Source: a virus
Length of the DNA stretch: 41,147 nt
Strand: one strand, 5' to 3'
IMG/VR virus record: IMGVR_UViG_3300029479_000009
Span: 1-41,147 of that record
Shown: positions 78 to 41,147 of the stretch, piece after piece
How the letters are laid out: the number at the start of each line of letters is the position of its first letter
How positions within the stretch are numbered: the first letter of the stretch is position 1
Notes under the pieces: generated by a model
Seen by the model: the letters and a program-made list of their open reading frames with translations, nothing else
Told to the model about the DNA's origin: nothing
The model's database searches: none
Position numbers and translations under genes: made by a program

Positions 78-676
78 GCTTCACTAAGACGCATCCCGGT
101 GTATTGGAAAAGCTGAGCCCAAAAGCCGCAGCCCTCTGGGTGTGCATCAATAATGATTCGCTGCTCCTCTGTGGGTTCCTCACGCTTGCCGCGTTTCATC
201 CCTGGCGGGACAGCCGACAAAGATACCGGATTTCCAGTCCCGTGGAAGTTGGCGCACCAATACCGGAAGATACAGGAAAGCACGCTGCGGGCGTTTGTGA
301 TCGTGTGCAGGCTCTTTCCGTCTACTTTCATCTTTTCCCAGTAGCCGGTAAGGGCTTGCGCGTCAATCTCCGCCATACGCATTTCCCCGAATCGCTCCAA
401 AAAAGGAGGGATGTTCTTCTGATATGCGTTGATTGTACCACGTTTGACGGGTTTCGTCGAGCTCGTAATATAATTTTTATAGGCTTCGGCCACTTCTTTA
501 AAAGTCGGCCCGGCGGCTTCCATCTCTTTTTTCTGGAGCATTGCATCCCGGGCGGCCTCATACTTTGCGACGGCTTCCGTCACGGAGTAGCCCATAAAGT
601 GCTTTGTGCTGCCGTCGGGCATCTTGCGCTTGATCTCATAGCGGCCATCTGAGCGCTTAGCCTTTTTTCTTGGCAT
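1..676 (-). CDS. int: Tyrosine integrase, N-terminal part (continues in frame at 41147..40553 across the circular junction)
   Basis: Minus-strand ORF from ATG at 676 (purine-rich RBS GGAAGGGGGAAG upstream). It overlaps the stop of 657..1265 by 20 nt. N-terminus MPRKKAKRSDGRYEIKRKMPDGS... is typical of integrase arm-binding regions. The ORF is open to position 1 and in phase with the ORF at the other window end. Confidence 0.9.
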   Translation of the reverse strand, partial: MPRKKAKRSDGRYEIKRKMPDGSTKHFMGYSVTEAVAKYEAARDAMLQKKEMEAAGPTFKEVAEAYKNYITSSTKPVKRGTINAYQKNIPPFLERFGEMRMAEIDAQALTGYWEKMKVDGKSLHTITNARSVLSCIFRYWCANFHGTGNPVSLSAVPPGMKRGKREEPTEEQRIIIDAHPEGCGFWAQLFQYTGMRLSEANGLKWENVDLEKGVIRVREQMPWDK

Positions 677-1265
677 CTTCTTCCCCCTTCCTTGTGATCG
701 AGTATGCGGCCTGATCGGCCATGGCGGCATCCTTGCCGCACTGGTGTGCCTGGTGTAAGATGTCCATTTCCGGCTGGAAGCCGTTGGGATCCGGGTCAAG
801 TCCCCGCACTCGGGCCATTTCATGGTCATTGATGATGGTGCCACAATGGCTTACCCGGTTATCCAGCGGGCAGTGCAGGTTTGCCAGCACCTCGGACAGG
901 ACGCCGATGTGATCAGACCCATGATCTCCATACCGGAGATACAAAAGGGCGTTTATCTCGTACATACTCGCTTCGTCCAAGGCCTCGTGCAGAATCTGGC
1001 GCTTCTCCGCGTCGATGGGGTCATCTTCCAGATACTCCAGCAGGCCGGGATGGCTGCAGGCGTCTATATACCGCACGGCGGACACGCCGCAGCAGGTAAA
1101 CCACTTGAGGGCCGTGGGAAGTGAGGGCGGCGTTGTCCCCTGCTCCCATGCCGCGATCGTGGGGCGGCTGACACCCATGCGCTTTGCCAGCTTCTCCTGG
1201 CTCAGCCCCGCATGTGCTCGTGCTGTTTCGAGCGCTTTTGCCATTCTCCACGAAAATTCGTCCAT
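657..1265 (-). CDS. XRE-family HTH regulator (202 aa) with an unknown C-terminal domain
   Basis: N-terminal HTH signature LSQEKLAKRMGVSRPTIAAWEQG; translationally overlapped with int. Confidence 0.7.
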   Translation of the reverse strand: MDEFSWRMAKALETARAHAGLSQEKLAKRMGVSRPTIAAWEQGTTPPSLPTALKWFTCCGVSAVRYIDACSHPGLLEYLEDDPIDAEKRQILHEALDEASMYEINALLYLRYGDHGSDHIGVLSEVLANLHCPLDNRVSHCGTIINDHEMARVRGLDPDPNGFQPEMDILHQAHQCGKDAAMADQAAYSITRKGEEDAKKKG

Positions 1266-2080: not shown

Positions 2081-2110
2081 CCCCGTCGTCACCCGGCGGC
2101 GGGGCTTTTA
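2081..2110 (+). terminator. Rho-independent terminator candidate for 1756..2001
   Basis: Stem ccccgtcg/cggcgggg (one G-U pair), 8-nt loop, then cttttat. Confidence 0.5.
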
Positions 2111-3334
2111 TGTGTCCACTGTGGACACCCCGGCTGGCTGTTCAAGCATCTTCATAAATGCGTCGCCAGATATAATTTTTATATTTGCGCCGTCTGAATT
2201 CAATTTTTCTACTTTTTTCTGTTCGCCTGATTTTTTCCCGTATTCATAAGCCCATTCTTTTGAGCGAGTTCCACATACCAAGATATCAAGGGTTGGGCTT
2301 ATCGTTGACCGGACAACAGCCCCCAAAGCAGAAGCCTTTTCAAAAGCCTGCTGCCGTGAAATTGGAAGTTCATCTGCAAATGCGATTTTTTTACCATAAA
2401 GAGCATTTGACGGGTCTGCGTCCTTACTGGGTTTGTAGATGTTCTTGAAGCTTTTATCGGCGTTTCTCTTTTTTCGCTCTTTTTCAAAAATAGCATCTTT
2501 TTCTTTGAAAAAATTGTATAGCGCCAAGATGGCTTTTGTATCTTCCAAAGAGTTGTCATAGTCATAAGTAAGCCCGATTTGACGGGCAGCTATTTCAAGC
2601 GTTGTCCACTTCGGATTTTCAATGCCGTTTGCTGTGTTGTATCTTCGCAGACGGTATACAGGCGAATCCATGTGAATCTTTTCCATGTCAAATTTGTACT
2701 TTTCCAAGAAGTCATATACAAAATTGTAATCAAAGGTTATTACCAGCTTGGTACGATTGAAAATATCTTGTACATATGGCTTTACTTCCGAAAAGCATGG
2801 ACAATCTTTCACCAAGCTATATGGAATTGCATTGACACTATAAGCCCTGATCCACTCGGTTTTTCTTCTTGGCTTGCAGTACTGGTCAATCAGGACATTT
2901 CCGCTTGGGTCTATGATGGAGATTTGCAAAATATCGTTGTTGCTTACATACTGCCGCTCATAGCTTGTGGCTTCGACGTCCAGCACCACAAAATCATAGT
3001 GGGCGTTTTCGGCTTCTCGCTTTTCCATTTGCCGCTGGAGCTCATCAAGATAATCTTGCGGCATTTTTCCCGGTATCGGCTTCGGCTCTTCTTTTTGAGG
3101 CTGAGCCGACAGAGAGGAAACCTGAGCAGTTTGCGCTTGTGCTTCACAGATAATTTTGCTGATTTCATCCTCTTCGTTGCTCTGACTGGAAGATTCAAAA
3201 GAATTTGAAAATATTTTTTGATTCTTTTTCCGAATTTCTTGATATTTTGCTTTTTCTTCTGCTTCTTTTTGCTTTTTGCGCTGAAAATGCCAAATCACAG
3301 CGATTGCAACAACCAAAATCAATAATAAGCCCAT
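2108..3334 (-). CDS. Membrane-anchored DnaQ-like (DEDD) exonuclease fused to a C-terminal BRCT-like domain (408 aa)
   Basis: N-terminal hydrophobic helix GLLLILVVAIAVIW, followed by a charged linker. Exonuclease motifs are VVLDVEAT and ITFDYNFVYDFL, plus a degenerate ExoIII region YDNSLEDTKAIL. The BRCT-like tail reads GKKIAFADELPISRQQAFEKASALGAVV...LDILVCG. The region is visibly AT-rich. Confidence 0.6.
   Translation of the reverse strand: MGLLLILVVAIAVIWHFQRKKQKEAEEKAKYQEIRKKNQKIFSNSFESSSQSNEEDEISKIICEAQAQTAQVSSLSAQPQKEEPKPIPGKMPQDYLDELQRQMEKREAENAHYDFVVLDVEATSYERQYVSNNDILQISIIDPSGNVLIDQYCKPRRKTEWIRAYSVNAIPYSLVKDCPCFSEVKPYVQDIFNRTKLVITFDYNFVYDFLEKYKFDMEKIHMDSPVYRLRRYNTANGIENPKWTTLEIAARQIGLTYDYDNSLEDTKAILALYNFFKEKDAIFEKERKKRNADKSFKNIYKPSKDADPSNALYGKKIAFADELPISRQQAFEKASALGAVVRSTISPTLDILVCGTRSKEWAYEYGKKSGEQKKVEKLNSDGANIKIISGDAFMKMLEQPAGVSTVDT
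2112..2128. repeat. Dispersed palindrome copy 1: GTGTCCAC-T-GTGGACAC
   Basis: Perfect 8+1+8 palindrome. It overlaps the last codons (VSTVDT) of the minus-strand gene 2108..3334. Confidence 0.9.
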
Positions 3335-3353: not shown

Positions 3354-4193
3354 TCAAAACGCCAGCCTTACAAACTTTGTGCCCTGCTTATGGCTTTCCA
3401 TGCCAGCCAGAGCACGGGCGCGGACAGTGGGAGACGCGGCCTGCAAGGACTCATAAGCATCAAAAACTCGGGTGATGGCCACACGGTCATTCTGATAGCT
3501 GTCCATGTGGTAGTCCAGCAGCGTGCCGTTTCCCTTAAAGCGGAAAGTGGCCTTTTTAGCGGTGCAAGCCTTTTTCAGGATTTCGATTTCACCCGGCTCT
3601 GCGATGTCGTCACCGTACTCCCAGACATAGGCTCCGGAGCCGAGGGAGTCGATGACGGTCTTTTGGATGATCTTGTCTTTGCTCACCGCACGGCGGTAGG
3701 TCTCGCCGTCCACGTTGTAGATGATCTGGTCAAAGAAAATCCAGTTTTTCCCATAGTAGTCATACATCAGGCGGATGGGCTGGAGGTCACCACCCACCGA
3801 ACAGAAGTAAGGCAGGATGAAAATGGTCTGATCCGTGGCCGGGAATCCTTTCCAAAAGTAAAAATCCACATTTTCCACTTCGTCGTGCTCTTTGTAAAGC
3901 TCCGAGTTGAGCTTCTCGATCAGGGCGTTGACCTGCAAATCTTCCAGCGCCTGCTGGGCCGCTGCCAGAGTGCCGACATTGGAAACCATCTGCTGCTGTG
4001 CGGCGGGCAGGGACGCATAAGCCCCCTGTGCGTTGGCAATGGCCGTGGCACTGTCCAGCGTGACCGCGCCGATCTGGTTGATCTGTGCTTCTACCTCTTC
4101 CGGGGTAGCCGCAAAAGCAAGAGGGCAAAAAGTGACAGCAGCCGCGAGGCTCAGGCCTACCGCAGCCACCCGGCACTTTTCCGCAATTTTCAC
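3354..4193 (-). CDS. Secreted protein of unknown function (start moved to GTG 4193)
   Basis: From the GTG start the N-terminus is (M)KIAEKCRVAAVGLSLAAAVTFCPLAFA/ATPEE, a classic signal peptide. An AAAGGGGAA RBS precedes the GTG. The track ATG at 4226 has no RBS. Confidence 0.6.
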   Translation of the reverse strand: MKIAEKCRVAAVGLSLAAAVTFCPLAFAATPEEVEAQINQIGAVTLDSATAIANAQGAYASLPAAQQQMVSNVGTLAAAQQALEDLQVNALIEKLNSELYKEHDEVENVDFYFWKGFPATDQTIFILPYFCSVGGDLQPIRLMYDYYGKNWIFFDQIIYNVDGETYRRAVSKDKIIQKTVIDSLGSGAYVWEYGDDIAEPGEIEILKKACTAKKATFRFKGNGTLLDYHMDSYQNDRVAITRVFDAYESLQAASPTVRARALAGMESHKQGTKFVRLAF

Positions 4194-4284
4194 GTTAAAT
4201 TCCCCTTTTCTATTGATTTTTCTCATTATCGGTTGTATTATAAAGCCAGCAAATACAACAATTAGGTGTAAAGGAGTGTTTCAG

Positions 4285-33552: not shown

Positions 33553-34356
33553 ATGAACCTCTTGACTTTTCTCTTCCGTCTCTTCGCCGCTCTTGCTCAC
33601 GCAAAGGAAGCGGCAGACAACTCCACCGCAGAGCCTGCCCCCGTGTCCACTGTGGACACCCAGAGCGCCGCTCCTCCCGGCTGGGGCGGGCCGCTGCCTT
33701 ACCGATACATCGACGTGAGCCGGTATCAGGGCAAAGTCACCCTCGACGGCTGGCGCAAAATTAAGGCGGCTGGCTACAAAGGCGTCATGCTCAAGACGGT
33801 CTCCACGAATTCGAAGATGAGTAAGCGGGCAGACGGACTGTACATCGACCCGACCTTTGAGCGCAACTACGCGGGCGCCCGGGCCGCTGGGCTGGACGTG
33901 GGCGTCTACTACTACACCTACGCCACCAGCGAAGCGATGGCGGATGCAGAGCTGGCCCTTGTGCGGGAAGCGGTGCGGGGCAAAGAGCTCACCATGCCCG
34001 TGTGCGTGGACGTGGAGGAAAACAAGCTCAAAAAGCTCTCCACGCTTGACCTCACCAACGTGGTGGCGTATGCGCTGGAAAAGGTGGAAGCTATGGGCTT
34101 TTATGCCCAGCTGTACACCTACACGGGCTACAGCTATGAGTTGGACATGCAGCGCCTGGCAGGCCGCTGGGACGTCTGGCTCGCCGACTACACGGGCGAA
34201 ACGCCCAAGGTGGATTACATCTACCACGCCCACCAGCACACCAGCAAGGGCCGCGTGCCGGGCATCTCCGGCAACGTTGACCTCAACGTGACAGAGATCA
34301 ACTACCCCAAAATCATCCGCAAGAAGGGCCTGACCCGTCTTCGGGAGGGCGCATGA
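33553..34356 (+). CDS. GH25 muramidase endolysin with an N-terminal signal-like extension
   Basis: YIDVSRYQG...VYYYTYA...CVDVEE...SGNVDLN GH25 motifs; N-terminus MNLLTFLFRLFAALAHAKEA. Confidence 0.8.
   Translation: MNLLTFLFRLFAALAHAKEAADNSTAEPAPVSTVDTQSAAPPGWGGPLPYRYIDVSRYQGKVTLDGWRKIKAAGYKGVMLKTVSTNSKMSKRADGLYIDPTFERNYAGARAAGLDVGVYYYTYATSEAMADAELALVREAVRGKELTMPVCVDVEENKLKKLSTLDLTNVVAYALEKVEAMGFYAQLYTYTGYSYELDMQRLAGRWDVWLADYTGETPKVDYIYHAHQHTSKGRVPGISGNVDLNVTEINYPKIIRKKGLTRLREGA
33643..33659. repeat. Dispersed palindrome copy 5: GTGTCCAC-T-GTGGACAC, inside the endolysin N-terminal linker
   Basis: Perfect copy; encodes VSTVDT in frame. Confidence 0.9.
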
Positions 34357-34962: not shown

Positions 34963-35223
34963 ATGGCAAGCACTACATACGAACCGATTAACCCGTGGAG
35001 ATGCTCAAAACGTATTATCCAGACAAATTCTGACCGCGCCGGAACAGACGTTTGTACAGGTCACCATATCGACAATGTCAACAAACTGGTGACGTTTTGT
35101 CACCAGTTTACCAGCATTGGCACTATGGTGCGCAACGCCGGAGAGTTGCCGCAGCCTTTCTGGCTCGGTGCTGCCTGTGGCGGCGGCTCGTGTAGTGCTG
35201 CCACTGTGCCTGCAAGGACTTGA
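34963..35223 (+). CDS. Hypothetical ORF with a strong RBS, overlapping the next ORF out of frame (unresolved)
   Basis: AAGGAGGA 4 nt before the ATG; the product has no recognisable features; 107-nt out-of-frame overlap with 35117..35401. Confidence 0.3.
   Translation: MASTTYEPINPWRCSKRIIQTNSDRAGTDVCTGHHIDNVNKLVTFCHQFTSIGTMVRNAGELPQPFWLGAACGGGSCSAATVPART
35083..35109. repeat. Perfect 11-bp inverted repeat AAACTGGTGAC-gtttt-GTCACCAGTTT
   Basis: Read directly; no U-tract after it. Confidence 0.8.
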
Positions 35224-35401
35224 CCGACAGCAGATGACCGCCGCCATCAAAAGCGCACCGCTTGGGAGGGTAGACCGTAAGATAGCCTTACTGCGGTACG
35301 TTGAGCGGCTTCCGCAGGCCGACATTGCAGCACGCACCCACTACTCCCGGCAGGCGGTGAGCTATCGCCTGCAAAGCATTGATAAAATGCTGGATATGTG
35401 A
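35117..35401 (+). CDS. Sigma-70 region-4-like HTH protein (start uncertain)
   Basis: LPVAAARVVLPLCLQGL...GRVDRKIALLRYVERLPQADIAARTHYSRQAVSYRLQSIDKML; TTG start without a clear RBS. Confidence 0.4.
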   Translation: MALWCATPESCRSLSGSVLPVAAARVVLPLCLQGLDRQQMTAAIKSAPLGRVDRKIALLRYVERLPQADIAARTHYSRQAVSYRLQSIDKMLDM

Positions 35402-35439
35402 TATACTATTTGCACACCTCCCTGTGAGGTGTCTTTCAC

Positions 35440-35485
35440 AAAAAATCCCCCGGGTGGTGTTCGCGCATCACTCGGGGGATTTTTT
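35440..35485. terminator. Bidirectional terminator (shared hairpin block, copy 1)
   Basis: AAAAAATCCCCCGGGTGGTG...CATCACTCGGGGGATTTTTT: a long stem flanked by A- and T-runs. Confidence 0.8.
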
Positions 35486-35487
35486 AT

Positions 35488-35796
35488 TTACTCCATGTCC
35501 TCCAGCACTTTGAGGTACTTGGGATAGAGCTCATCAATGATAACCTGCTTTTCCATGTCGTCCAACTCGCCGTTCATGAGGGCATCACTCTGGCTCTGAT
35601 CGTCGAGAACCAGCTTGGTGGTGATGGTCTCTTCAGCATCGTCGCAGCACCGGACAAGATCACCGTCCTCGGTGATGTGTGCGTAGATCGTCCAGATCTG
35701 GCAATCACGGCTTGCGGATTCAAAATCCTCATATTCAATCTCGGTACCGTTCTCCATGACCTTGGTTGCGAACTCTTCGGCAGTCAGCTTTTTCAT
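35488..35796 (-). CDS. Acidic small protein (102 aa), cassette 1
   Basis: Start at MKKLTAEEF... with a GGAGG RBS (the track start at 35835 lies in the duplicated leader). Rich in D/E: ...EIEYEDFES...DDAEE...DDQSQSD...LEDME. Confidence 0.6.
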   Translation of the reverse strand: MKKLTAEEFATKVMENGTEIEYEDFESASRDCQIWTIYAHITEDGDLVRCCDDAEETITTKLVLDDQSQSDALMNGELDDMEKQVIIDELYPKYLKVLEDME

Positions 35797-35842
35797 TTTA
35801 GTTACCTCCAGTTGATTGTGTGTGGTGTCTTTCACTGTCTAT

Positions 35843-35903
35843 ATTATACGCTCATTGAGCGTATTTATCAAGGCTTTTTGCAAGGTTCTATGCTCATTGA
35901 GCA
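35843..35903 (-). promoter_or_regulatory. Promoter P1 (TTGATA-17-TATAAT) with two GCTCA-T-TGAGC palindromes
   Basis: Minus-strand -10 at 35843-48 and -35 at 35866-71. Palindrome ACGCTCATTGAGCGT at 35848-62 fills the spacer; TGCTCATTGAGCA lies at 35891-903. Confidence 0.7.
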
Positions 35904-35904
35904 C

Positions 35905-35949
35905 AAAAAATCTCTGGCAGCCTTGTACCAGACCGCCAGAGATTTTTTT
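35905..35949. terminator. Bidirectional terminator after the HTH gene
   Basis: AAAAAATCTCTGGC...GCCAGAGATTTTTTT. Confidence 0.7.
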
Positions 35950-35990
35950 CTCAGCTCGTTAATGGCGTTTTTATCTCATCCTGCCACCCA

Positions 35991-36314
35991 TTACAGAAGT
36001 CCATAGTGCTCTGCCAGCAAAAAGCGGATGTATACAGGGCACTCTCTTGTCTCACCGCACCAGCCTTGCAGTGTACGATAAGGAACCCCGGCCATCTTGG
36101 CAAAGGCCGTCTGCGTGAGGCCTGTCTCTTCCACCATCTCTTTAAAAGACATGTGGGCGATTTTCCAAATATTTTCAAGCTTAGTCTTTTGGGCATCCAG
36201 ATCAACGCACCCGGGGGCATCGTCCTCCACGCTGAGGGTGACGTTGTTCAAAAAGATTTCTTTAACGGCCTTTGGGTCAGATGCCATGACGAAAAGTTCA
36301 GCTGCATTATACAT
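35991..36314 (-). CDS. HTH protein (107 aa) with a C-terminal MqsA/YgiT-like HTH
   Basis: AAGGAG RBS; ...TGLTQTAFAKMAGVPYRTLQGWCGETRECPVYIRFLL... Confidence 0.6.
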   Translation of the reverse strand: MYNAAELFVMASDPKAVKEIFLNNVTLSVEDDAPGCVDLDAQKTKLENIWKIAHMSFKEMVEETGLTQTAFAKMAGVPYRTLQGWCGETRECPVYIRFLLAEHYGLL

Positions 36315-36339
36315 TGCAATTCTCCTTTTTTGATTGATA

Positions 36340-36380
36340 AATTCCCCGGGTGGTGTTCGCGCATCACTCGGGGATTTTTT
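36340..36380. terminator. Shared hairpin block, copy 2 (no U-tract on the minus strand, so probably leaky)
   Basis: Same stem sequence as 35447-35478. On the transcribed (minus) strand it is followed by AATTTATC rather than a U-run. Confidence 0.5.
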
Positions 36381-36382
36381 AT

Positions 36383-36556
36383 TTACTGCTCGTTCTTTTC
36401 AAACATTTTGAAATATTTCTCGTACTCTTCCCACTCTTCGGGGTCTGCCGGGTCATCACAAGCCGGGCTGCAATACTCTGCAATCCACTCTTCCTTGTCG
36501 GTGCTTCTCCAACCGCCATCGAACATCGCTGCTGCACTGCTGTAATAATCTTTCAT
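36383..36556 (-). CDS. Acidic small protein (57 aa), cassette 2
   Basis: Start at MKDYYSSAAAMF... with the same GGAGG leader as cassette 1; ...CDDPADPEEWEEYEKYFKMFEKNEQ. Confidence 0.55.
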   Translation of the reverse strand: MKDYYSSAAAMFDGGWRSTDKEEWIAEYCSPACDDPADPEEWEEYEKYFKMFEKNEQ

Positions 36557-36602
36557 CTTAGTTACCTCCAGTTGATTGTGTGTGGTGTCTTTCACTGTCT
36601 AT

Positions 36603-36663
36603 ATTATACGCTCATTGAGCGTATTTGTCAAGGTTTTTCGCGAATTTTTATGCTCATTGAGCA
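36603..36663 (-). promoter_or_regulatory. Promoter P2 (TTGACA-17-TATAAT) with two GCTCA-T-TGAGC palindromes; duplicate of P1
   Basis: -10 at 36603-08 and -35 at 36626-31; palindromes at 36608-22 and 36651-63; about 82 bp nearly identical to 35791-35872. Confidence 0.7.
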
Positions 36664-36727
36664 CCTTTACTGCCGCCAGTCGGTTTCGGCCCGGCTGGAC
36701 GGCATTGCTAAAGTTTTTGAGTAAAGC

Positions 36728-36768: not shown

Positions 36769-36957
36769 TTATGCGCAAAATTCTTTCTGCATTGCTGCGC
36801 CCATTGCCTGCATGAGGATTGGATTTTGCTTTAAGGTGTCGTTCAGCACCTTCATAACGACCGCCTGCTTTTCTTCTTTGGAGAGGTTCTCGAACTCATC
36901 ACCAAACATCTTTTTGCAAACCAGAAGTGCGCCCTTCAGAAAGTCCATCGTTTCCAT
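36769..36957 (-). CDS. Small hypothetical protein (62 aa; alternative start at 36972)
   Basis: GGAGGAA 6 nt before the ATG of METMDFLKGALLVCKKMFGDEFENLSKEEK... Confidence 0.5.
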   Translation of the reverse strand: METMDFLKGALLVCKKMFGDEFENLSKEEKQAVVMKVLNDTLKQNPILMQAMGAAMQKEFCA

Positions 36958-36998
36958 TTTTATTTCCTCCATCGTTTTATTTCCCTTGCTGTGATTAT

Positions 36999-37104
36999 AG
37001 TATAGCACTATTTACAGTGTATGTAAATTGACATTTTCGACAATGTTTATAGTGCCATCTTGTACAGTTTTGACATTGTAAACAGTGCTGTTTTTTGCTA
37101 TACT
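36999..37104. promoter_or_regulatory. Divergent promoter pair with inverted repeats
   Basis: Minus strand: TTTACA-17-TATACT (37022-27 / 36999-37004). Plus strand: TTGTAA-17-TATACT (37076-81 / 37099-104). Also a TTTACA-N5-TGTAAA palindrome at 37011-27 and repeated TTGACATT. Confidence 0.55.
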
Positions 37105-37131
37105 AAGGCAAATGAAACGGGAGGTATTTTT

Positions 37132-37317
37132 ATGATTTCAGAAAAGAAAAAGGCATCCAATGCCAAATGGGACAAGGAAAACATGACAAGCTTAGCCTGC
37201 CGCGTAAAAAAGGACTACGCGGAAAAGTTTAAGGCAGCGTGCGCAGAGGCTGGCACAACTCCGAATGCGGTATTAAAGCAGGCAGTCGAAGAGTTTTTGC
37301 AGGCGCATACAAAATAA
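37132..37317 (+). CDS. Ribbon-helix-helix (CopG/Arc-like) small regulator (61 aa)
   Basis: GGGAGG RBS; KASNAKWDKENMTSLACRVKKDYAEKFKAACAEAGTTPNAVLKQAVEEFL fits the RHH beta-alpha-alpha pattern. Confidence 0.55.
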   Translation: MISEKKKASNAKWDKENMTSLACRVKKDYAEKFKAACAEAGTTPNAVLKQAVEEFLQAHTK

Positions 37318-40552: not shown

Positions 40553-41147
40553 CTAGGGCTTTTGGTCTGGCATTTCGTCTGCCTTTTTTTGCAGACCTTT
40601 TTGGCCTGCCTGGCCGCTGACATACGCATCCAGCTGGGCATAGTATTTTTGATCTTCGGACTCCCGAAGCTGCTGATATACCCGGCGGGTTGTCATGATG
40701 TCGGCATGGCCCATAAGCTTCTGGGCCACAAGATCCGGCACGCCTGCATAAAAAAGATTTGTTGCATAGAAGTGCCGAAACTGGTGGGCGGTGACAACCG
40801 CTTTCCACTTGTAGTAGGTGCGCACCTTGTCAGGATGACCTTTTACTTTAGCGTGTTTTTCAATCCGAATACTCAAGCCAAGCGGGCGACAATACATCGC
40901 CCATTTCCAATCATATTTTGAGCTGGTAAGAGGCTTATCTTCTTCGGAAAGGACATACTCCCAAGGCTTATGCATGAGCTTACGCTCTTCAAGCATGGGC
41001 CTCAACGGCGAAAGAATCGGGATATCTCGGTAGCCCATATCTGACTTTGGAGTCTCTAGATATGGCTGGTTTTTATCCCATGGCATCTGCTCCCTCACCC
41101 GGATGACGCCTTTTTCAAGATCAACGTTCTCCCATTTGAGCCCATTG
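40553..41147 (-). CDS. int: Tyrosine integrase, C-terminal catalytic part (joins 676..1 across the circular junction)
   Basis: ...VTAHQFRHFYATNLF... and ...LMGHADIMTTRRVYQ... give the HxxR and catalytic Tyr context. Stop TAG at 40553-55. Collapsing the overlap yields one 1194-nt ORF (397 aa). Confidence 0.9.
   Translation of the reverse strand, partial: NGLKWENVDLEKGVIRVREQMPWDKNQPYLETPKSDMGYRDIPILSPLRPMLEERKLMHKPWEYVLSEEDKPLTSSKYDWKWAMYCRPLGLSIRIEKHAKVKGHPDKVRTYYKWKAVVTAHQFRHFYATNLFYAGVPDLVAQKLMGHADIMTTRRVYQQLRESEDQKYYAQLDAYVSGQAGQKGLQKKADEMPDQKP
41071..41147. repeat. Terminal overlap copy 2 (identical to 1-77)
   Basis: Direct comparison of the window ends. Confidence 0.95.

What the first reader, a model, noticed from the sequence alone, without database searches (positions are those of the whole stretch)
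35440..36665. Two cassettes with duplicated promoter-operator-leader and hairpin flanks but unrelated acidic cargo, plus an HTH gene (acr/aca-like layout)
On the minus strand, about 82 bp are nearly identical between 35791-35872 and 36551-36632. The shared block holds the -35, a 15-bp palindrome ACGCTCATTGAGCGT filling the spacer, the TATAAT, the 5' UTR, the GGAGG RBS and ATG AAA. A second TGCTCATTGAGCA palindrome sits about 45 bp upstream in both copies. About 47 bp containing the stop codon and a long hairpin are also duplicated (35447-35494 and 36343-36389).

Between these conserved flanks lie unrelated small, very acidic ORFs of 102 and 57 aa.

The hairpin after cassette 2 lacks a U-tract on the transcribed strand, so read-through into the HTH gene 35991..36314 is plausible. 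That HTH protein is the obvious candidate to bind the four GCTCA-T-TGAGC operators.

Strong repressible promoters, acidic mini-proteins and an autoregulatory HTH are the architecture of anti-CRISPR/anti-defence loci. The conserved flanks look like a device for cargo exchange by recombination.
Basis: partly seen in the sequence, partly recalled or inferred. Interest (0 to 1): 0.65.

Follow-up and report, generated by a model that had tools for sequence, protein, structure and literature searches.

The report
Repressor-controlled swappable anti-defence-like gene cassettes
A Faecalibacterium prophage carries two small acidic genes behind duplicated strong promoters that its own helix-turn-helix protein very probably shuts off, the layout phages use for anti-CRISPR genes, though whether these two proteins block any bacterial defence is untested.

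Summary
On the minus strand, a 114-nt promoter/operator/leader block and a ~42-nt hairpin block are each duplicated at 93% identity. They flank two unrelated acidic ORFs (102 and 57 aa, pI ~4.1) and a 107-aa HTH gene.

About 110 related Faecalibacterium phage loci show three things:
- **HTH and operators.** The HTH almost certainly binds the palindromes. Three operator classes differ at base ±3, and they track one recognition-helix residue perfectly (G84, D84, N84). The upstream operator, 42 bp away, switches with them.
- **Cargo slot.** At least seven unrelated cargo families occupy the slot in front of the HTH. An occupied/empty allele pair and chimeric proteins show cassettes are gained and lost by recombination at a repeated leader core.
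- **Link to anti-CRISPR.** Distant members of the same HTH family sit directly behind true AcrIC5 anti-CRISPR genes, with the same promoter design.

The locus is therefore an acr–aca-type autorepressed operon plus a satellite cassette under the same operators. The HTH matches no solved Aca. The two window cargos have no detectable relative among known anti-defence or defence proteins, so their function is inferred from context only.

The parts
36651..36663 (-). O2 of cassette 2: upstream operator TGCTCA-A-TGAGCA, centred at 36657, 42 bp from the O1 centre
   Evidence: Exact GCTCATTGAGC at 36652-36662. The 42-bp spacing holds in 42 of 46 distinct class A/B promoters.
36603..36631 (-). Promoter P2: TTGACA (36631-36626), 17-nt spacer, TATAAT (36608-36603)
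   Evidence: 12 of 12 consensus match. An A/T-rich, UP-like stretch lies between O2 and the -35.
36606..36624 (.). O1 of cassette 2: 19-nt palindrome ATACGCTCATTGAGCGTAT, filling the promoter spacer and overlapping the -10
   Evidence: (I5). The same 19-mer in public viral contigs lies next to related HTH genes.
36557..36602 (-). Leader of cassette 2: CA-rich, unstructured 5' UTR with the core GTGAAAGACACC and a GGAGG ribosome-binding site
   Evidence: MFE -3.9 kcal/mol, z = +0.26. Conserved across operator classes and cargos.
36383..36556 (-). ac57: 57-aa acidic cargo (pI 4.10). Narrow family, no known relatives.
   Evidence: It occupies the slot upstream of the HTH in 10 related loci.
36339..36380 (-). 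Internal hairpin between ac57 and the HTH gene. It lacks a U-tract on the transcribed strand (AAUUUAUCAAUC), so it is probably a partial terminator or attenuator, or an mRNA 3' stabiliser.
   Evidence: D4; -17.0 kcal/mol; z = -2.3. Conserved without a U-tract in all ac57 and C13 loci.
35991..36314 (-). 107-aa HTH protein: the proposed Aca-like autorepressor. An N-terminal helical domain (1-53) is followed by an XRE-type HTH, with recognition helix 79-86 holding the specificity residue G84.
35905..35948 (-). Strong bidirectional intrinsic terminator after the HTH gene (22-nt arms, U6 tail)
   Evidence: I3; -35.5 kcal/mol.
35891..35903 (-). O2 of cassette 1: TGCTCA-A-TGAGCA, centred at 35897, 42 bp from O1
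35843..35871 (-). Promoter P1: TTGATA-17-TATAAT, with O1 (35846-35864) in the spacer
35797..35842 (-). Leader of cassette 1, nearly identical to the leader of cassette 2
   Evidence: MFE -2.2 kcal/mol, z = +1.3.
35488..35796 (-). ac102: 102-aa acidic cargo (pI 4.05). Confident predicted alpha/beta fold with no solved relative.
   Evidence: (pLDDT 91.5). The same family sits in slot 1, upstream of the HTH, in 24 related loci.
35440..35485 (.). Terminal bidirectional terminator. It ends cassette 1 on the minus strand (U6) and the convergent late/lysis transcript on the plus strand.
   Evidence: I4; -28.9 kcal/mol.
35416..35439 (-). Remnant of the leader core (GTGAAAGACACCTCACAGGGAGGT) after the terminator: the 3' direct-repeat boundary of the ac102 cassette unit
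   Evidence: D2. It is homologous to the second leader copy that follows the hairpin in L043/L045 and to the leader of the empty allele L044.

Best explanation
This is an acr-aca-type accessory operon of a temperate Faecalibacterium phage, plus a satellite cassette in the same regulon.

**Proposed mechanism.** Two near-consensus sigma-70-type promoters each carry a palindromic operator in their spacer (O1) and a second operator 42 bp upstream (O2, four helical turns away). On entry into a cell with no repressor, both promoters fire. Their open, CA-rich leaders drive strong translation of the small acidic proteins ac57 and ac102. Some transcripts from the first promoter read through a U-tract-less hairpin into the 107-aa HTH gene. 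The HTH protein accumulates, binds O1 and O2 (probably as a dimer on each palindrome, cooperatively), occludes RNA polymerase, and shuts both cassettes down to a low autoregulated level that persists in the lysogen.

**Cargos.** They are most likely counter-defence proteins (anti-CRISPR, anti-restriction or similar).

**Cassette exchange.** Cassettes of the form [cargo - hairpin - leader core] are gained, lost and shuffled by homologous recombination at the repeated leader and hairpin flanks.

**Shown here:** the anatomy, the HTH-operator covariation, the cargo diversity, the occupied/empty alleles, and the association of the HTH family with AcrIC5.

**Inferred:** DNA binding and repression, the burst-then-shut-off timing, partial termination at the hairpin, and the anti-defence function of ac57 and ac102.
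For: **Anatomy.**

**HTH-operator link.**
- A search of public viral contigs with the 19-nt palindrome alone returned 25 loci. About 21 encode an (R/K)TxQxW HTH protein nearby, and 16 are clear homologues.
- In about 85 loci retrieved by the HTH protein, the promoter upstream always has an odd palindrome in its spacer, in three classes: CGCTCA-A-TGAGCG, CACGCA-A-TGCGTG and CACCCA-A-TGGGTG.
- Of 107 alignment columns, only residue 84 separates the classes. G goes with 14 unique proteins, D with 28 and N with 8. Ten further loci with imperfect sites fit the same rule.
- Base +/-3 is the only operator position specific to each class.
- Residue 84 lies in the predicted recognition helix, 79-86.
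- The rule cuts across phylogeny. L065 and L067 are 78-79% identical to class-B proteins but only 69-73% to other class-A lineages, yet they have G84 and class-A sites.
- O2 switches class together with O1 and keeps the 42-bp spacing.

**acr-aca kinship.**
- Full-length AcrIC5 genes (Pfam 81-88 bits against a cut-off of 27; phmmer E = 1.5e-9 to the solved AcrIC5 structure 7yhr) are followed directly by homologues of this HTH in L150/L155, L139 and L118/L120; in L121 an ~650-nt stretch lies between them. Support: hmmsearch E = 6e-15 to 2e-12, hhalign probability 98.2-98.6% over 83-89 columns. L150/L155 and L139 have a palindrome-in-spacer promoter; L150/L155 also have a similar CA-rich leader.
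- Other content of the HTH operons fits a counter-defence theme: an N6/N4 DNA methylase in L044 (E = 4e-50) and proteins with AP2-like C-termini. AP2 proteins are reported to be frequent in acr loci (bioRxiv 10.1101/2023.05.22.541795).
- The host carries type I-C or I-E CRISPR-Cas and R-M systems (PMC12716062).
- Aca proteins that also control neighbouring operons are described (PMC13551039).

**Cargo exchange.**
- At least seven cargo families use the same slot.
- L045 and L044 are an occupied/empty pair bounded by AGTGAAAGAC(A/C)CC repeats.
- P0161, P0143 and P0169 are chimeric cargo proteins.
Against: - ac57 and ac102 have no detectable similarity to AcrIC5 or to any solved or annotated anti-defence protein. 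The tests: Pfam, PDB sequences, Foldseek against the PDB (best E = 2.1), and a home-made AcrIC5 profile with hhalign (probability below 4%).
- The best viral fold hit carries the label 'AcrIC5-like domain-containing protein' (E = 0.012). It may align to a non-AcrIC5 part of that 179-aa protein. hhalign against such N-terminal domains was not significant.
- No AcrIC5 gene was found among the close HTH loci examined. The AcrIC5 association is with branches only 28-33% identical to the window's HTH.
- The G84 rule fails in three still more distant RTWQ[Q/N]W proteins that sit near the same palindrome.
- The class-C O2 site is degenerate (7 of 12 matches).
- The locus position, between lysis and integrase, and the promoter-plus-terminator units fit classical morons equally well.
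Confidence: 0.65

Rival explanations
1. Lysogenic-conversion morons. The cassettes are prophage-expressed genes that benefit the lysogen, for example by superinfection exclusion, a small defence function or host physiology. The HTH simply holds them at a steady low level by negative autoregulation.
For: - The locus lies between the lysis genes (endolysin 33553-34356) and the integrase end (40553-41098), the classical moron position.
- Cassette 1 is a self-contained promoter-gene-terminator unit.
- Negative autoregulation gives constitutive expression in lysogens.
Against: - No cargo hits any PADLOC defence model.
- The cargos are small, very acidic and soluble, with no membrane segments or signal peptides evident in the sequences.
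- The HTH family is found behind true AcrIC5 genes, and one operon carries an orphan DNA methylase. Both point to counter-defence, not defence.
Confidence: 0.15
2. Generic early or host-takeover genes. The cassettes encode early proteins that redirect host processes unrelated to immunity, under an early-gene repressor.
For: - Strong repressible promoters and small ORFan proteins are typical of phage early regions.
- The ac102 family also occurs in arrays of small ORFans in 70-138 kb elements that have no HTH of this family.
Against: - The locus is far from the CI-like repressor and the early/replication region (657-1265 and about 5-11.5 kb).
- The cargo is dispensable and hypervariable, including an empty allele. 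That is unlike essential takeover genes.
- The family is associated with AcrIC5.
Confidence: 0.12
3. Reverse-order type II toxin-antitoxin module (higBA-like). The small upstream protein is a toxin, and the XRE-type HTH is its antitoxin and autorepressor.
For: - Gene order is small ORF followed by an XRE-type HTH, with palindromes over the promoter.
- HigA and HipB antitoxins are among the nearest folds to the HTH domain.
Against: - Seven unrelated cargo families pair with one conserved HTH.
- An empty allele carries the HTH alone.
- Cassette 1 has a cargo but no antitoxin gene of its own.
- The cargos are strongly acidic and match no Pfam toxin family.
- A hairpin separates cargo from HTH, rather than the tight coupling usual in toxin-antitoxin pairs.
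Confidence: 0.04
4. Site-specific, integron-like cassette system. The hairpins act as attC-like recombination sites for a dedicated recombinase.
For: Conserved hairpins lie at the 3' ends of the cassettes, and the cargo is variable.
Against: - The hairpins are canonical GC-rich intrinsic terminators with A and T tracts.
- The indel boundaries map to direct repeats of the leader core, not to the hairpin.
- Chimeric junctions fall inside coding sequence, at short stretches of similarity.
- No recombinase gene lies next to the locus. The only integrase is the phage's own, about 4 kb away.
Confidence: 0.02

Closest known systems
acr-aca operons with Aca autorepressors (Aca1 and Aca2 paradigms; PMC6765145, PMC8633003, PMC9410906)
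   Same: - A strong promoter with inverted-repeat operators overlapping it.
- Variable small genes upstream and a conserved HTH gene at the 3' end.
- The same regulator paired with different upstream genes in different elements.
- The HTH domain's nearest folds include Aca1 (7vjn, probability 0.96) and Aca10.
- Distant members of this HTH family sit behind AcrIC5.
   Different: - There is no sequence-level similarity to any solved Aca, and the Foldseek E-values are not significant.
- This protein has an extra ~53-residue N-terminal domain.
- O1 sits in the promoter spacer, with O2 exactly 42 bp upstream.
- A U-tract-less hairpin lies between cargo and regulator in some cassettes.
- The window's upstream genes are not known acr genes.
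Aca proteins that co-regulate neighbouring anti-defence operons, and 5'-UTR RNA motifs bound by Aca (Feussner et al. 2026, PMC13551039)
   Same: One regulator gene, with its operator pair duplicated in front of a second, regulator-less cassette (the ac102 cassette).
   Different: - The 5' leader here is unstructured (z = +0.3 to +1.3) and is identical across operator classes. It is therefore unlikely to be a class-specific RNA operator.
- The leader seems instead to serve translation and recombination.
AcrIC5 anti-CRISPR family (Pfam PF22147; Leon et al. 2021, PMC7913775; structure 7yhr)
   Same: - Small, acidic proteins found in gut Firmicutes and Actinobacteria phages.
- They occupy the same slot in front of homologues of this HTH (L150, L139, L118).
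- The ac102 N-terminus is found fused to an AcrIC5 C-terminus in P0143.
   Different: ac102 and ac57 themselves do not match the family. Pfam gives no hit, and hhalign gives a probability below 4% with only an 11-residue NGTEIEY motif shared.
Phage morons (promoter-gene-terminator units in late or accessory regions of temperate phages)
   Same: Cassette 1 is a self-contained promoter-ORF-terminator unit inserted between the lysis genes and the integrase end.
   Different: - The promoter carries operators for a phage-encoded repressor shared with a neighbouring operon.
- The unit is bounded by leader direct repeats and is exchanged among phages as a cassette.
434/P22-type XRE repressor-operator specificity and phage heteroimmunity
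   Same: - A dimeric XRE-type HTH is inferred to read a palindrome.
- Specificity is set by a residue at the C-terminal end of the recognition helix. From my own knowledge of the HTH_3 alignment, this residue is equivalent to Gln33 of the 434 repressor.
- Natural variants form discrete specificity classes.
   Different: - The regulator controls an accessory cassette regulon, not the lysis-lysogeny switch. The phage has a separate CI-like repressor at 657-1265.
- The switch appears to involve a single residue (G, D or N) paired with a single base pair.

Membership tests
acr-aca operon (functional class) | A DNA-binding regulator gene (HTH or RHH) in the same operon, immediately downstream of one or more acr genes | tested here: inconclusive
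   Met for distant members of the HTH family: AcrIC5 (Pfam 81-88 bits; 7yhr E = 1.5e-9) is directly followed by the HTH homologue in L150/L155, L139 and L118/L120; in L121 ~650 nt separate them. In the window the gene upstream of the HTH (ac57) is not a recognised acr.
acr-aca operon (functional class) | Inverted-repeat operator(s) overlapping the operon promoter | tested here: met
   A 19-nt palindrome lies in the spacer of both promoters, with a second site 42 bp upstream.
acr-aca operon (functional class) | The regulator binds those repeats and represses the promoter | not testable with these tools
   Comparative evidence only: residue 84 (G/D/N) covaries perfectly with operator base +/-3 (A/C/G) in 50 unique proteins plus 10 further loci, and O2 covaries too.
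acr-aca operon (functional class) | The same regulator family is found with different upstream genes in different elements | tested here: met
   At least seven unrelated cargo families occur upstream, and several more downstream.
acr-aca operon (functional class) | The upstream proteins inhibit CRISPR-Cas or another defence system | not testable with these tools
   No homology to known inhibitors. Only contextual support.
Named Aca families (Aca1-Aca14), sequence membership | Significant sequence similarity to a named Aca protein | tested here: not met
   phmmer against all PDB chain sequences, which include Aca1 and Aca10 (both appear), found nothing at E <= 1. Foldseek shows only a generic XRE-fold resemblance (Aca1 E = 1.3). 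Aca families without a solved structure, and the 36 AcaFinder families, were not tested. AcaFinder's held supplements contain none of this family's motifs.
AcrIC5 (Pfam PF22147) | A match to the family profile above the gathering score | tested here: not met
   ac102 and ac57 give no hit. A home-made AcrIC5 HMM gives E >= 1.5, and hhalign probabilities are 3.7% and 0.3%. The chimera P0143 does pass (44.1 bits) but only in its C-terminal half.
XRE-family HTH (Pfam HTH_3) | A match to HTH_3, or the five-helix XRE fold | tested here: inconclusive
   HTH_3 scores 19.6 bits, below the 23-bit cut-off. The AF2 model (pLDDT 85.7) has helices 57-64, 68-75, 79-86 and 94-103, which superpose on XRE proteins at 1.3-1.8 A over about 49 residues, though the Foldseek E-values are 0.3 or higher.
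Type II toxin-antitoxin (higBA-like) | A toxin-fold protein constantly paired and co-inherited with its antitoxin | tested here: not met
   The cargos are interchangeable and unrelated, an empty allele exists, cassette 1 has no HTH gene, and there are no toxin-family hits.
Moron | An autonomous promoter-gene-terminator unit inserted between conserved phage genes | tested here: met
   Cassette 1 has its own consensus promoter and a U6 terminator, and is present or absent among related phages. Expression from the prophage was not testable.
Integron-type cassette | attC recombination sites plus an adjacent IntI-type integrase | tested here: not met
   No recombinase lies next to the locus. The indel boundaries are leader direct repeats. 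The hairpins are terminators.

The most novel reading that the evidence does not exclude
The three operator/recognition-helix classes (G84 with A:T, D84 with C:G, N84 with G:C at operator position +/-3) could be 'immunity groups' of an anti-defence regulon. A resident prophage's repressor would silence the counter-defence genes of an incoming phage of the same class, an anti-anti-defence effect. That would select for one-residue/one-base-pair specificity switches. In parallel, the leader-repeat-bounded cassettes would act as an integrase-free, plug-and-play system that lets Faecalibacterium phages shuffle a pool of still unknown anti-defence proteins, including ac57 and ac102.
Probability: 0.3. 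Interest if true: 0.75.

Novelty: new member of a known kind. Interest (0 to 1): 0.55.

Why it matters
Faecalibacterium prausnitzii is one of the most abundant human gut commensals, and almost nothing is known about how its phages overcome its CRISPR-Cas (type I-C or I-E) and restriction systems.

- **A handle for discovery.** This HTH family and its operators give a guilt-by-association anchor. The HTH occurs in about 290 viral contigs. It flags at least a dozen small ORFan families, starting with ac57 and ac102, as candidate anti-defence proteins.
- **A testable specificity code.** The natural one-residue/one-base-pair code (G, D or N at residue 84 against A, C or G at +/-3) is directly testable. 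It could provide orthogonal repressor-operator pairs.
- **A documented exchange mechanism.** The occupied/empty alleles show at nucleotide resolution how such cassettes are exchanged.

Tried and rejected
- **DNA search of annotated phage genomes.** Only one unannotated 7-kb record matched. tblastn with ac102 found nothing. tblastn with the HTH found five unannotated records.
- **Pfam, PHROGs and PADLOC on the window proteins and cargo representatives.** Almost all are ORFans.
- **PDB sequence searches for cargos.** Negative.
- **Foldseek of the ac102 model against the PDB.** No match.
- **The BFVD 'AcrIC5-like' lead for ac102.** I followed it up. The chimera P0143 sits in a different phage context with no HTH of this family. 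hhalign of ac102 against the N-terminal domains of long AcrIC5 proteins, and against an AcrIC5 profile, was not significant. I therefore rejected the claim that ac102 is an AcrIC5 relative.
- **AcrIC5-like segments in the close HTH loci.** None found.
- **Independent context for ac102.** In the 70-138 kb contigs its neighbours have no Pfam hits, so this was uninformative.
- **A structured 5'-UTR RNA motif, as for Aca2.** Rejected, because the leader is unstructured, and Rfam found nothing above threshold.
- **AcaFinder supplements.** Searched for this family's motifs, with no hits.
- **Extending the residue-84 rule to very distant RTWQxW proteins.** It fails in 3 of 8.
Full report
**1. What is in the window**

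The window is a temperate phage or prophage with 54% G+C.
- A CI-like repressor lies at 657-1265 (minus strand).
- Recombination and replication genes lie at about 8.7-11.5 kb.
- A long plus-strand structural block runs to 33.5 kb.
- It is followed by a GH25 endolysin (33553-34356) and holin-like genes.
- A small sigma-70-region-4-like gene lies at 35117-35401.
- An integrase fragment runs off the right end (40553-41098).

Related copies lie in Faecalibacterium prausnitzii ATCC 27768 and in Faecalibacterium MAGs, so the host is Faecalibacterium. The finding sits on the minus strand, between the lysis module and the integrase end.

**2.

- A 114-nt block (35791-35904 and 36551-36664) is 93% identical, and a 42-nt hairpin block (35443-35484 and 36339-36380) is 93% identical.
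- Each long block holds an upstream palindrome (O2, TGCTCA-A-TGAGCA) and an A/T-rich stretch.
- Next comes a near-perfect promoter: TTGACA or TTGATA, 17 nt, TATAAT. These are the two best matches in 7 kb.
- A 19-nt palindrome (O1, ATACGCTCATTGAGCGTAT) fills the spacer.
- The block ends with a 46-nt CA-rich leader, GGAGG and ATG AAA.
- GCTCATTGAGC occurs four times in 41 kb, all of them here. Allowing one mismatch there are 12 matches, against 1.0 expected, and no shuffle reached 12.
- The O1-O2 centre distance is 42 bp in both copies.
- The cargos are 102 aa (pI 4.05; 28 acidic and 9 basic residues) and 57 aa (pI 4.10). They are unrelated to each other.
- The hairpin after the 57-aa ORF is followed by AAUUUAUCAAUC (-17.0 kcal/mol).
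- The hairpins after the 102-aa ORF and after the HTH gene are followed by U6 (-28.9 and -35.5 kcal/mol).
- Only 69 nt, holding the hairpin and a ribosome-binding site, separate the 57-aa ORF from the HTH gene. Read-through from the upstream promoter is therefore the only evident way to transcribe the HTH gene.

**3. The HTH protein and the palindromes belong together**

- Scanning public viral contigs with the 19-nt palindrome alone gave 25 loci. Sixteen encode clear homologues of the HTH protein, and several more encode (R/K)TxQxW-type HTH proteins.
- Conversely, the HTH family retrieved 292 viral contigs and six Faecalibacterium/Clostridiales genome loci.
- In the roughly 85 loci examined, the promoter in front of the cargo-HTH operon always has an odd palindrome in its 17-nt spacer. 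There are three classes: A CGCTCA-A-TGAGCG, B CACGCA-A-TGCGTG, and C CACCCA-A-TGGGTG.
- In an alignment of 50 unique HTH proteins, exactly one column separates the classes: residue 84. It is G in class A (14 proteins), D in class B (28) and N in class C (8).
- Ten more loci, whose palindromes failed my strict filter, obey the same rule.
- The classes differ at operator positions +/-3 and +/-5. Only +/-3 takes a different base in each class (A, C, G).
- The AlphaFold model (pLDDT 85.7) places residue 84 in helix 79-86, the second helix of the helix-turn-helix. By the Pfam HTH_3 alignment and my own knowledge of that family, this position corresponds to Gln33 of the 434 repressor, a base-contacting residue.
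- The association is not a by-product of relatedness. L065 and L067 are closer to class-B proteins (79% and 78%) than to other class-A lineages (73% and 69%), yet they carry G84 and class-A operators. Class C includes a lineage only 63% identical to everything else.
- O2 changes class together with O1 and keeps the 42-bp spacing in 42 of 46 distinct class A/B promoters. The class-C O2 is degenerate.
- Five distant homologues (35-48% identity) next to class-A palindromes also have G at this position. Three still more distant RTWQ[Q/N]W proteins do not, so the code is specific to this family.

Taken together, this is strong comparative evidence that the protein binds O1 and O2. With O1 inside the spacer and overlapping the -10, binding should repress transcription.

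**4. The slot is a cargo hot spot, and the flanks are where exchange happens**

- Between the promoter and the HTH gene, related phages carry at least seven unrelated families:
  - C0, about 115 aa, in 29 loci
  - the ac102 family, in 24 loci
  - ac57, in 10 loci
  - C5, about 150 aa, in 8 loci
  - C9 together with C11, in 5 loci
  - C13, in 3 loci
  - an MTNFEV family
- The stretch between the HTH gene and the convergent sigma-like gene varies from 50 to 1900 bp. It holds further families, including an N6/N4 DNA methylase (E = 4e-50) and zinc-ribbon proteins with an AP2-like C-terminus.
- The same 5' and 3' flanks (94-98% identical) surround ac57 in some phages and the unrelated C13 in others.
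- The hairpin travels with certain cargos (ac57, C13 and the ac102 family). It is absent after others, where only a 13-nt ribosome-binding-site spacer precedes the HTH gene.
- L045 and L044 are nearly identical on both sides. They differ by one ~390-nt unit, [rest of leader - ac102-family gene - hairpin], bounded by direct repeats of the leader core AGTGAAAGAC(A/C)CC. This is an occupied/empty allele pair.
- The window keeps the same leader-core remnant after the ac102 terminator, at 35416-35439.
- Chimeric proteins in public data join the ac102 N-terminus to the C-terminus of C9 (P0161), to an AcrIC5 C-terminus (P0143) and to a third sequence (P0169).
- Nothing points to a dedicated recombinase. 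Homologous recombination at functional flanks is sufficient.

**5. Link to anti-CRISPR loci**

- Following the AcrIC5 lead, I collected about 35 full-length AcrIC5 homologues from gut phage contigs. Those tested score 81-88 bits in Pfam over the whole model. One matches the solved AcrIC5 structure 7yhr at E = 1.5e-9.
- In L150/L155, L139 and L118/L120 the gene immediately after AcrIC5 is a homologue of the window's HTH protein across both its N-terminal domain and the HTH; in L121 about 650 nt lie between them. In L150 the two genes overlap by 4 nt. Support: hmmsearch E = 6e-15 to 2e-12, hhalign probability 98.2-98.6% over 83-89 columns at 29-33% identity.
- L150 has TTGACA-[TACCACTCATTGAGTGGTA]-TTATAT and a leader ending GGAGGAAATTAAAATG, which is the same design.
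- This is how Aca families are operationally recognised (PMC9765179). That paper also reports AcrIC5 co-localising with ten new predicted Aca families in gut phages. I could not determine whether this family is among them.
- F. prausnitzii strains carry type I-C or type I-E CRISPR-Cas and type I and II R-M systems (PMC12716062).
- Aca proteins that also control neighbouring regulator-less operons have been described (PMC13551039). That matches the ac102 satellite cassette.

**6. What is not shown**

- ac57 and ac102 have no relatives among known anti-defence or defence proteins.
- ac102 has a confident predicted alpha/beta fold (pLDDT 91.5) with no PDB match (best E = 2.1, TM <= 0.33).
- Its best viral hit is a 179-aa 'AcrIC5-like domain-containing protein' (E = 0.012). 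That hit probably reflects a fused extra domain. It could not be confirmed by profile comparison.
- ac57 is a very narrow family of five clusters.
- The leader is unstructured, so it is not an Aca2-type RNA operator.
- The HTH matches no solved Aca at sequence level and resembles them only in the generic XRE fold.

**7. Verdict**

The locus works like an acr-aca operon: an autorepressed, burst-then-shut-off expression unit for interchangeable small proteins, extended by a duplicated promoter-operator cassette. The regulator belongs to an HTH family that is Aca-like by association but is not one of the named families I could test. The anti-defence role of the two window cargos is the most likely reading (about 0.55-0.65) but rests on context only. 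Rival readings cannot be excluded: prophage morons that benefit the lysogen, and non-immune early functions. A toxin-antitoxin module or an integron-like system is unlikely.

Noticed in passing
window 36769-37317 (divergent region 36999-37104): Next to the locus, a 61-aa ribbon-helix-helix protein (ParG/Arc-like, Pfam ParG 22.5 bits; 37132-37317, plus strand) is transcribed divergently from a 67-79-aa ORFan (36769-36972/37008, minus strand). Each has a back-to-back promoter-like site with an extended -10 (37027..36999 and 37076..37104). L020 holds a 45%-identical RHH gene near a distant HTH homologue. An RHH-type Aca (Aca14) was recently described (PMC13551039), so this could be a second regulatory module of the same accessory island.
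   Followed up: partly
window 35117-35401 (+): A 94-aa protein with sigma-70 region 4 / MarR-like HTH hits, all below Pfam cut-offs, ends the late/lysis transcription unit. It is convergent with the cassette locus in almost every related phage (64-97% identity). Its role is unknown; it could be a late regulator.
   Followed up: partly
L044 (IMGVR_UViG_3300045988_020221), about 40-970 nt after the HTH stop: In this phage the slot upstream of the HTH is empty. A 310-aa N6/N4 DNA methylase (Pfam E = 4e-50) follows the HTH gene in the same orientation. It may be an anti-restriction methylase under the same repressor.
   Followed up: partly
L001, L031, L032, L034, L038-L040, L043, L058, L060, L071 (downstream of the HTH): A family of 233-454-aa cysteine-rich (zinc-ribbon repeat) proteins starts 10-15 nt after the HTH stop. 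Their C-terminus matches only the AP2-type DNA-binding part of 'HNH endonuclease' PHROGs (E = 3.5e-18). AP2-domain proteins are reported to be frequent in acr loci. In L118/L120/L121 a similar zinc-ribbon N-terminus is fused to the HTH family domain itself.
   Followed up: partly
L164-L193 (about 28 IMG/VR contigs of 70-138 kb): The ac102 family also occurs in large, lower-GC elements without this HTH family. There it is embedded in a long same-strand array of small acidic ORFans, and none of the 10 neighbours tested has a Pfam hit. These could be leading or early regions of plasmids or large phages.
   Followed up: partly
P0143, P0161, P0169 (public proteins); L113/L114: Natural chimeras share the ac102-family N-terminus (MKKLTAEEFA.KVMENGTE...) joined to unrelated C-termini: AcrIC5, cargo family C9, and an unknown sequence. 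The N-terminal ~20 residues are nearly invariant across a family whose mean column identity is 47%. That may reflect recombination-driven homogenisation next to the leader rather than protein function.
   Followed up: partly
L004, L008, L014, L023 (unrelated, higher-GC viral contigs): The identical 19-nt palindrome ATACGCTCAATGAGCGTAT occurs 300-900 nt from small YiaG-like 'RTWQxW' HTH genes in quite different viruses. This suggests an old and widespread pairing between an RT.Q.W recognition helix and a CTCA/TGAG operator.
   Followed up: no
window 2108-3334 (-) and 3354-4226 (-): Two sizeable minus-strand genes lie in the lysogeny-side region. The 408-aa protein has weak PHROG hits to DNA polymerase/ligase-like families, and the 290-aa protein has no hits. 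They are further accessory genes of unknown role.
   Followed up: no
window 35062-35130: An imperfect 32-nt inverted repeat (75% complementary, 5-nt loop) lies just upstream of and overlapping the start of the sigma-like gene (I1). Not examined.
   Followed up: no
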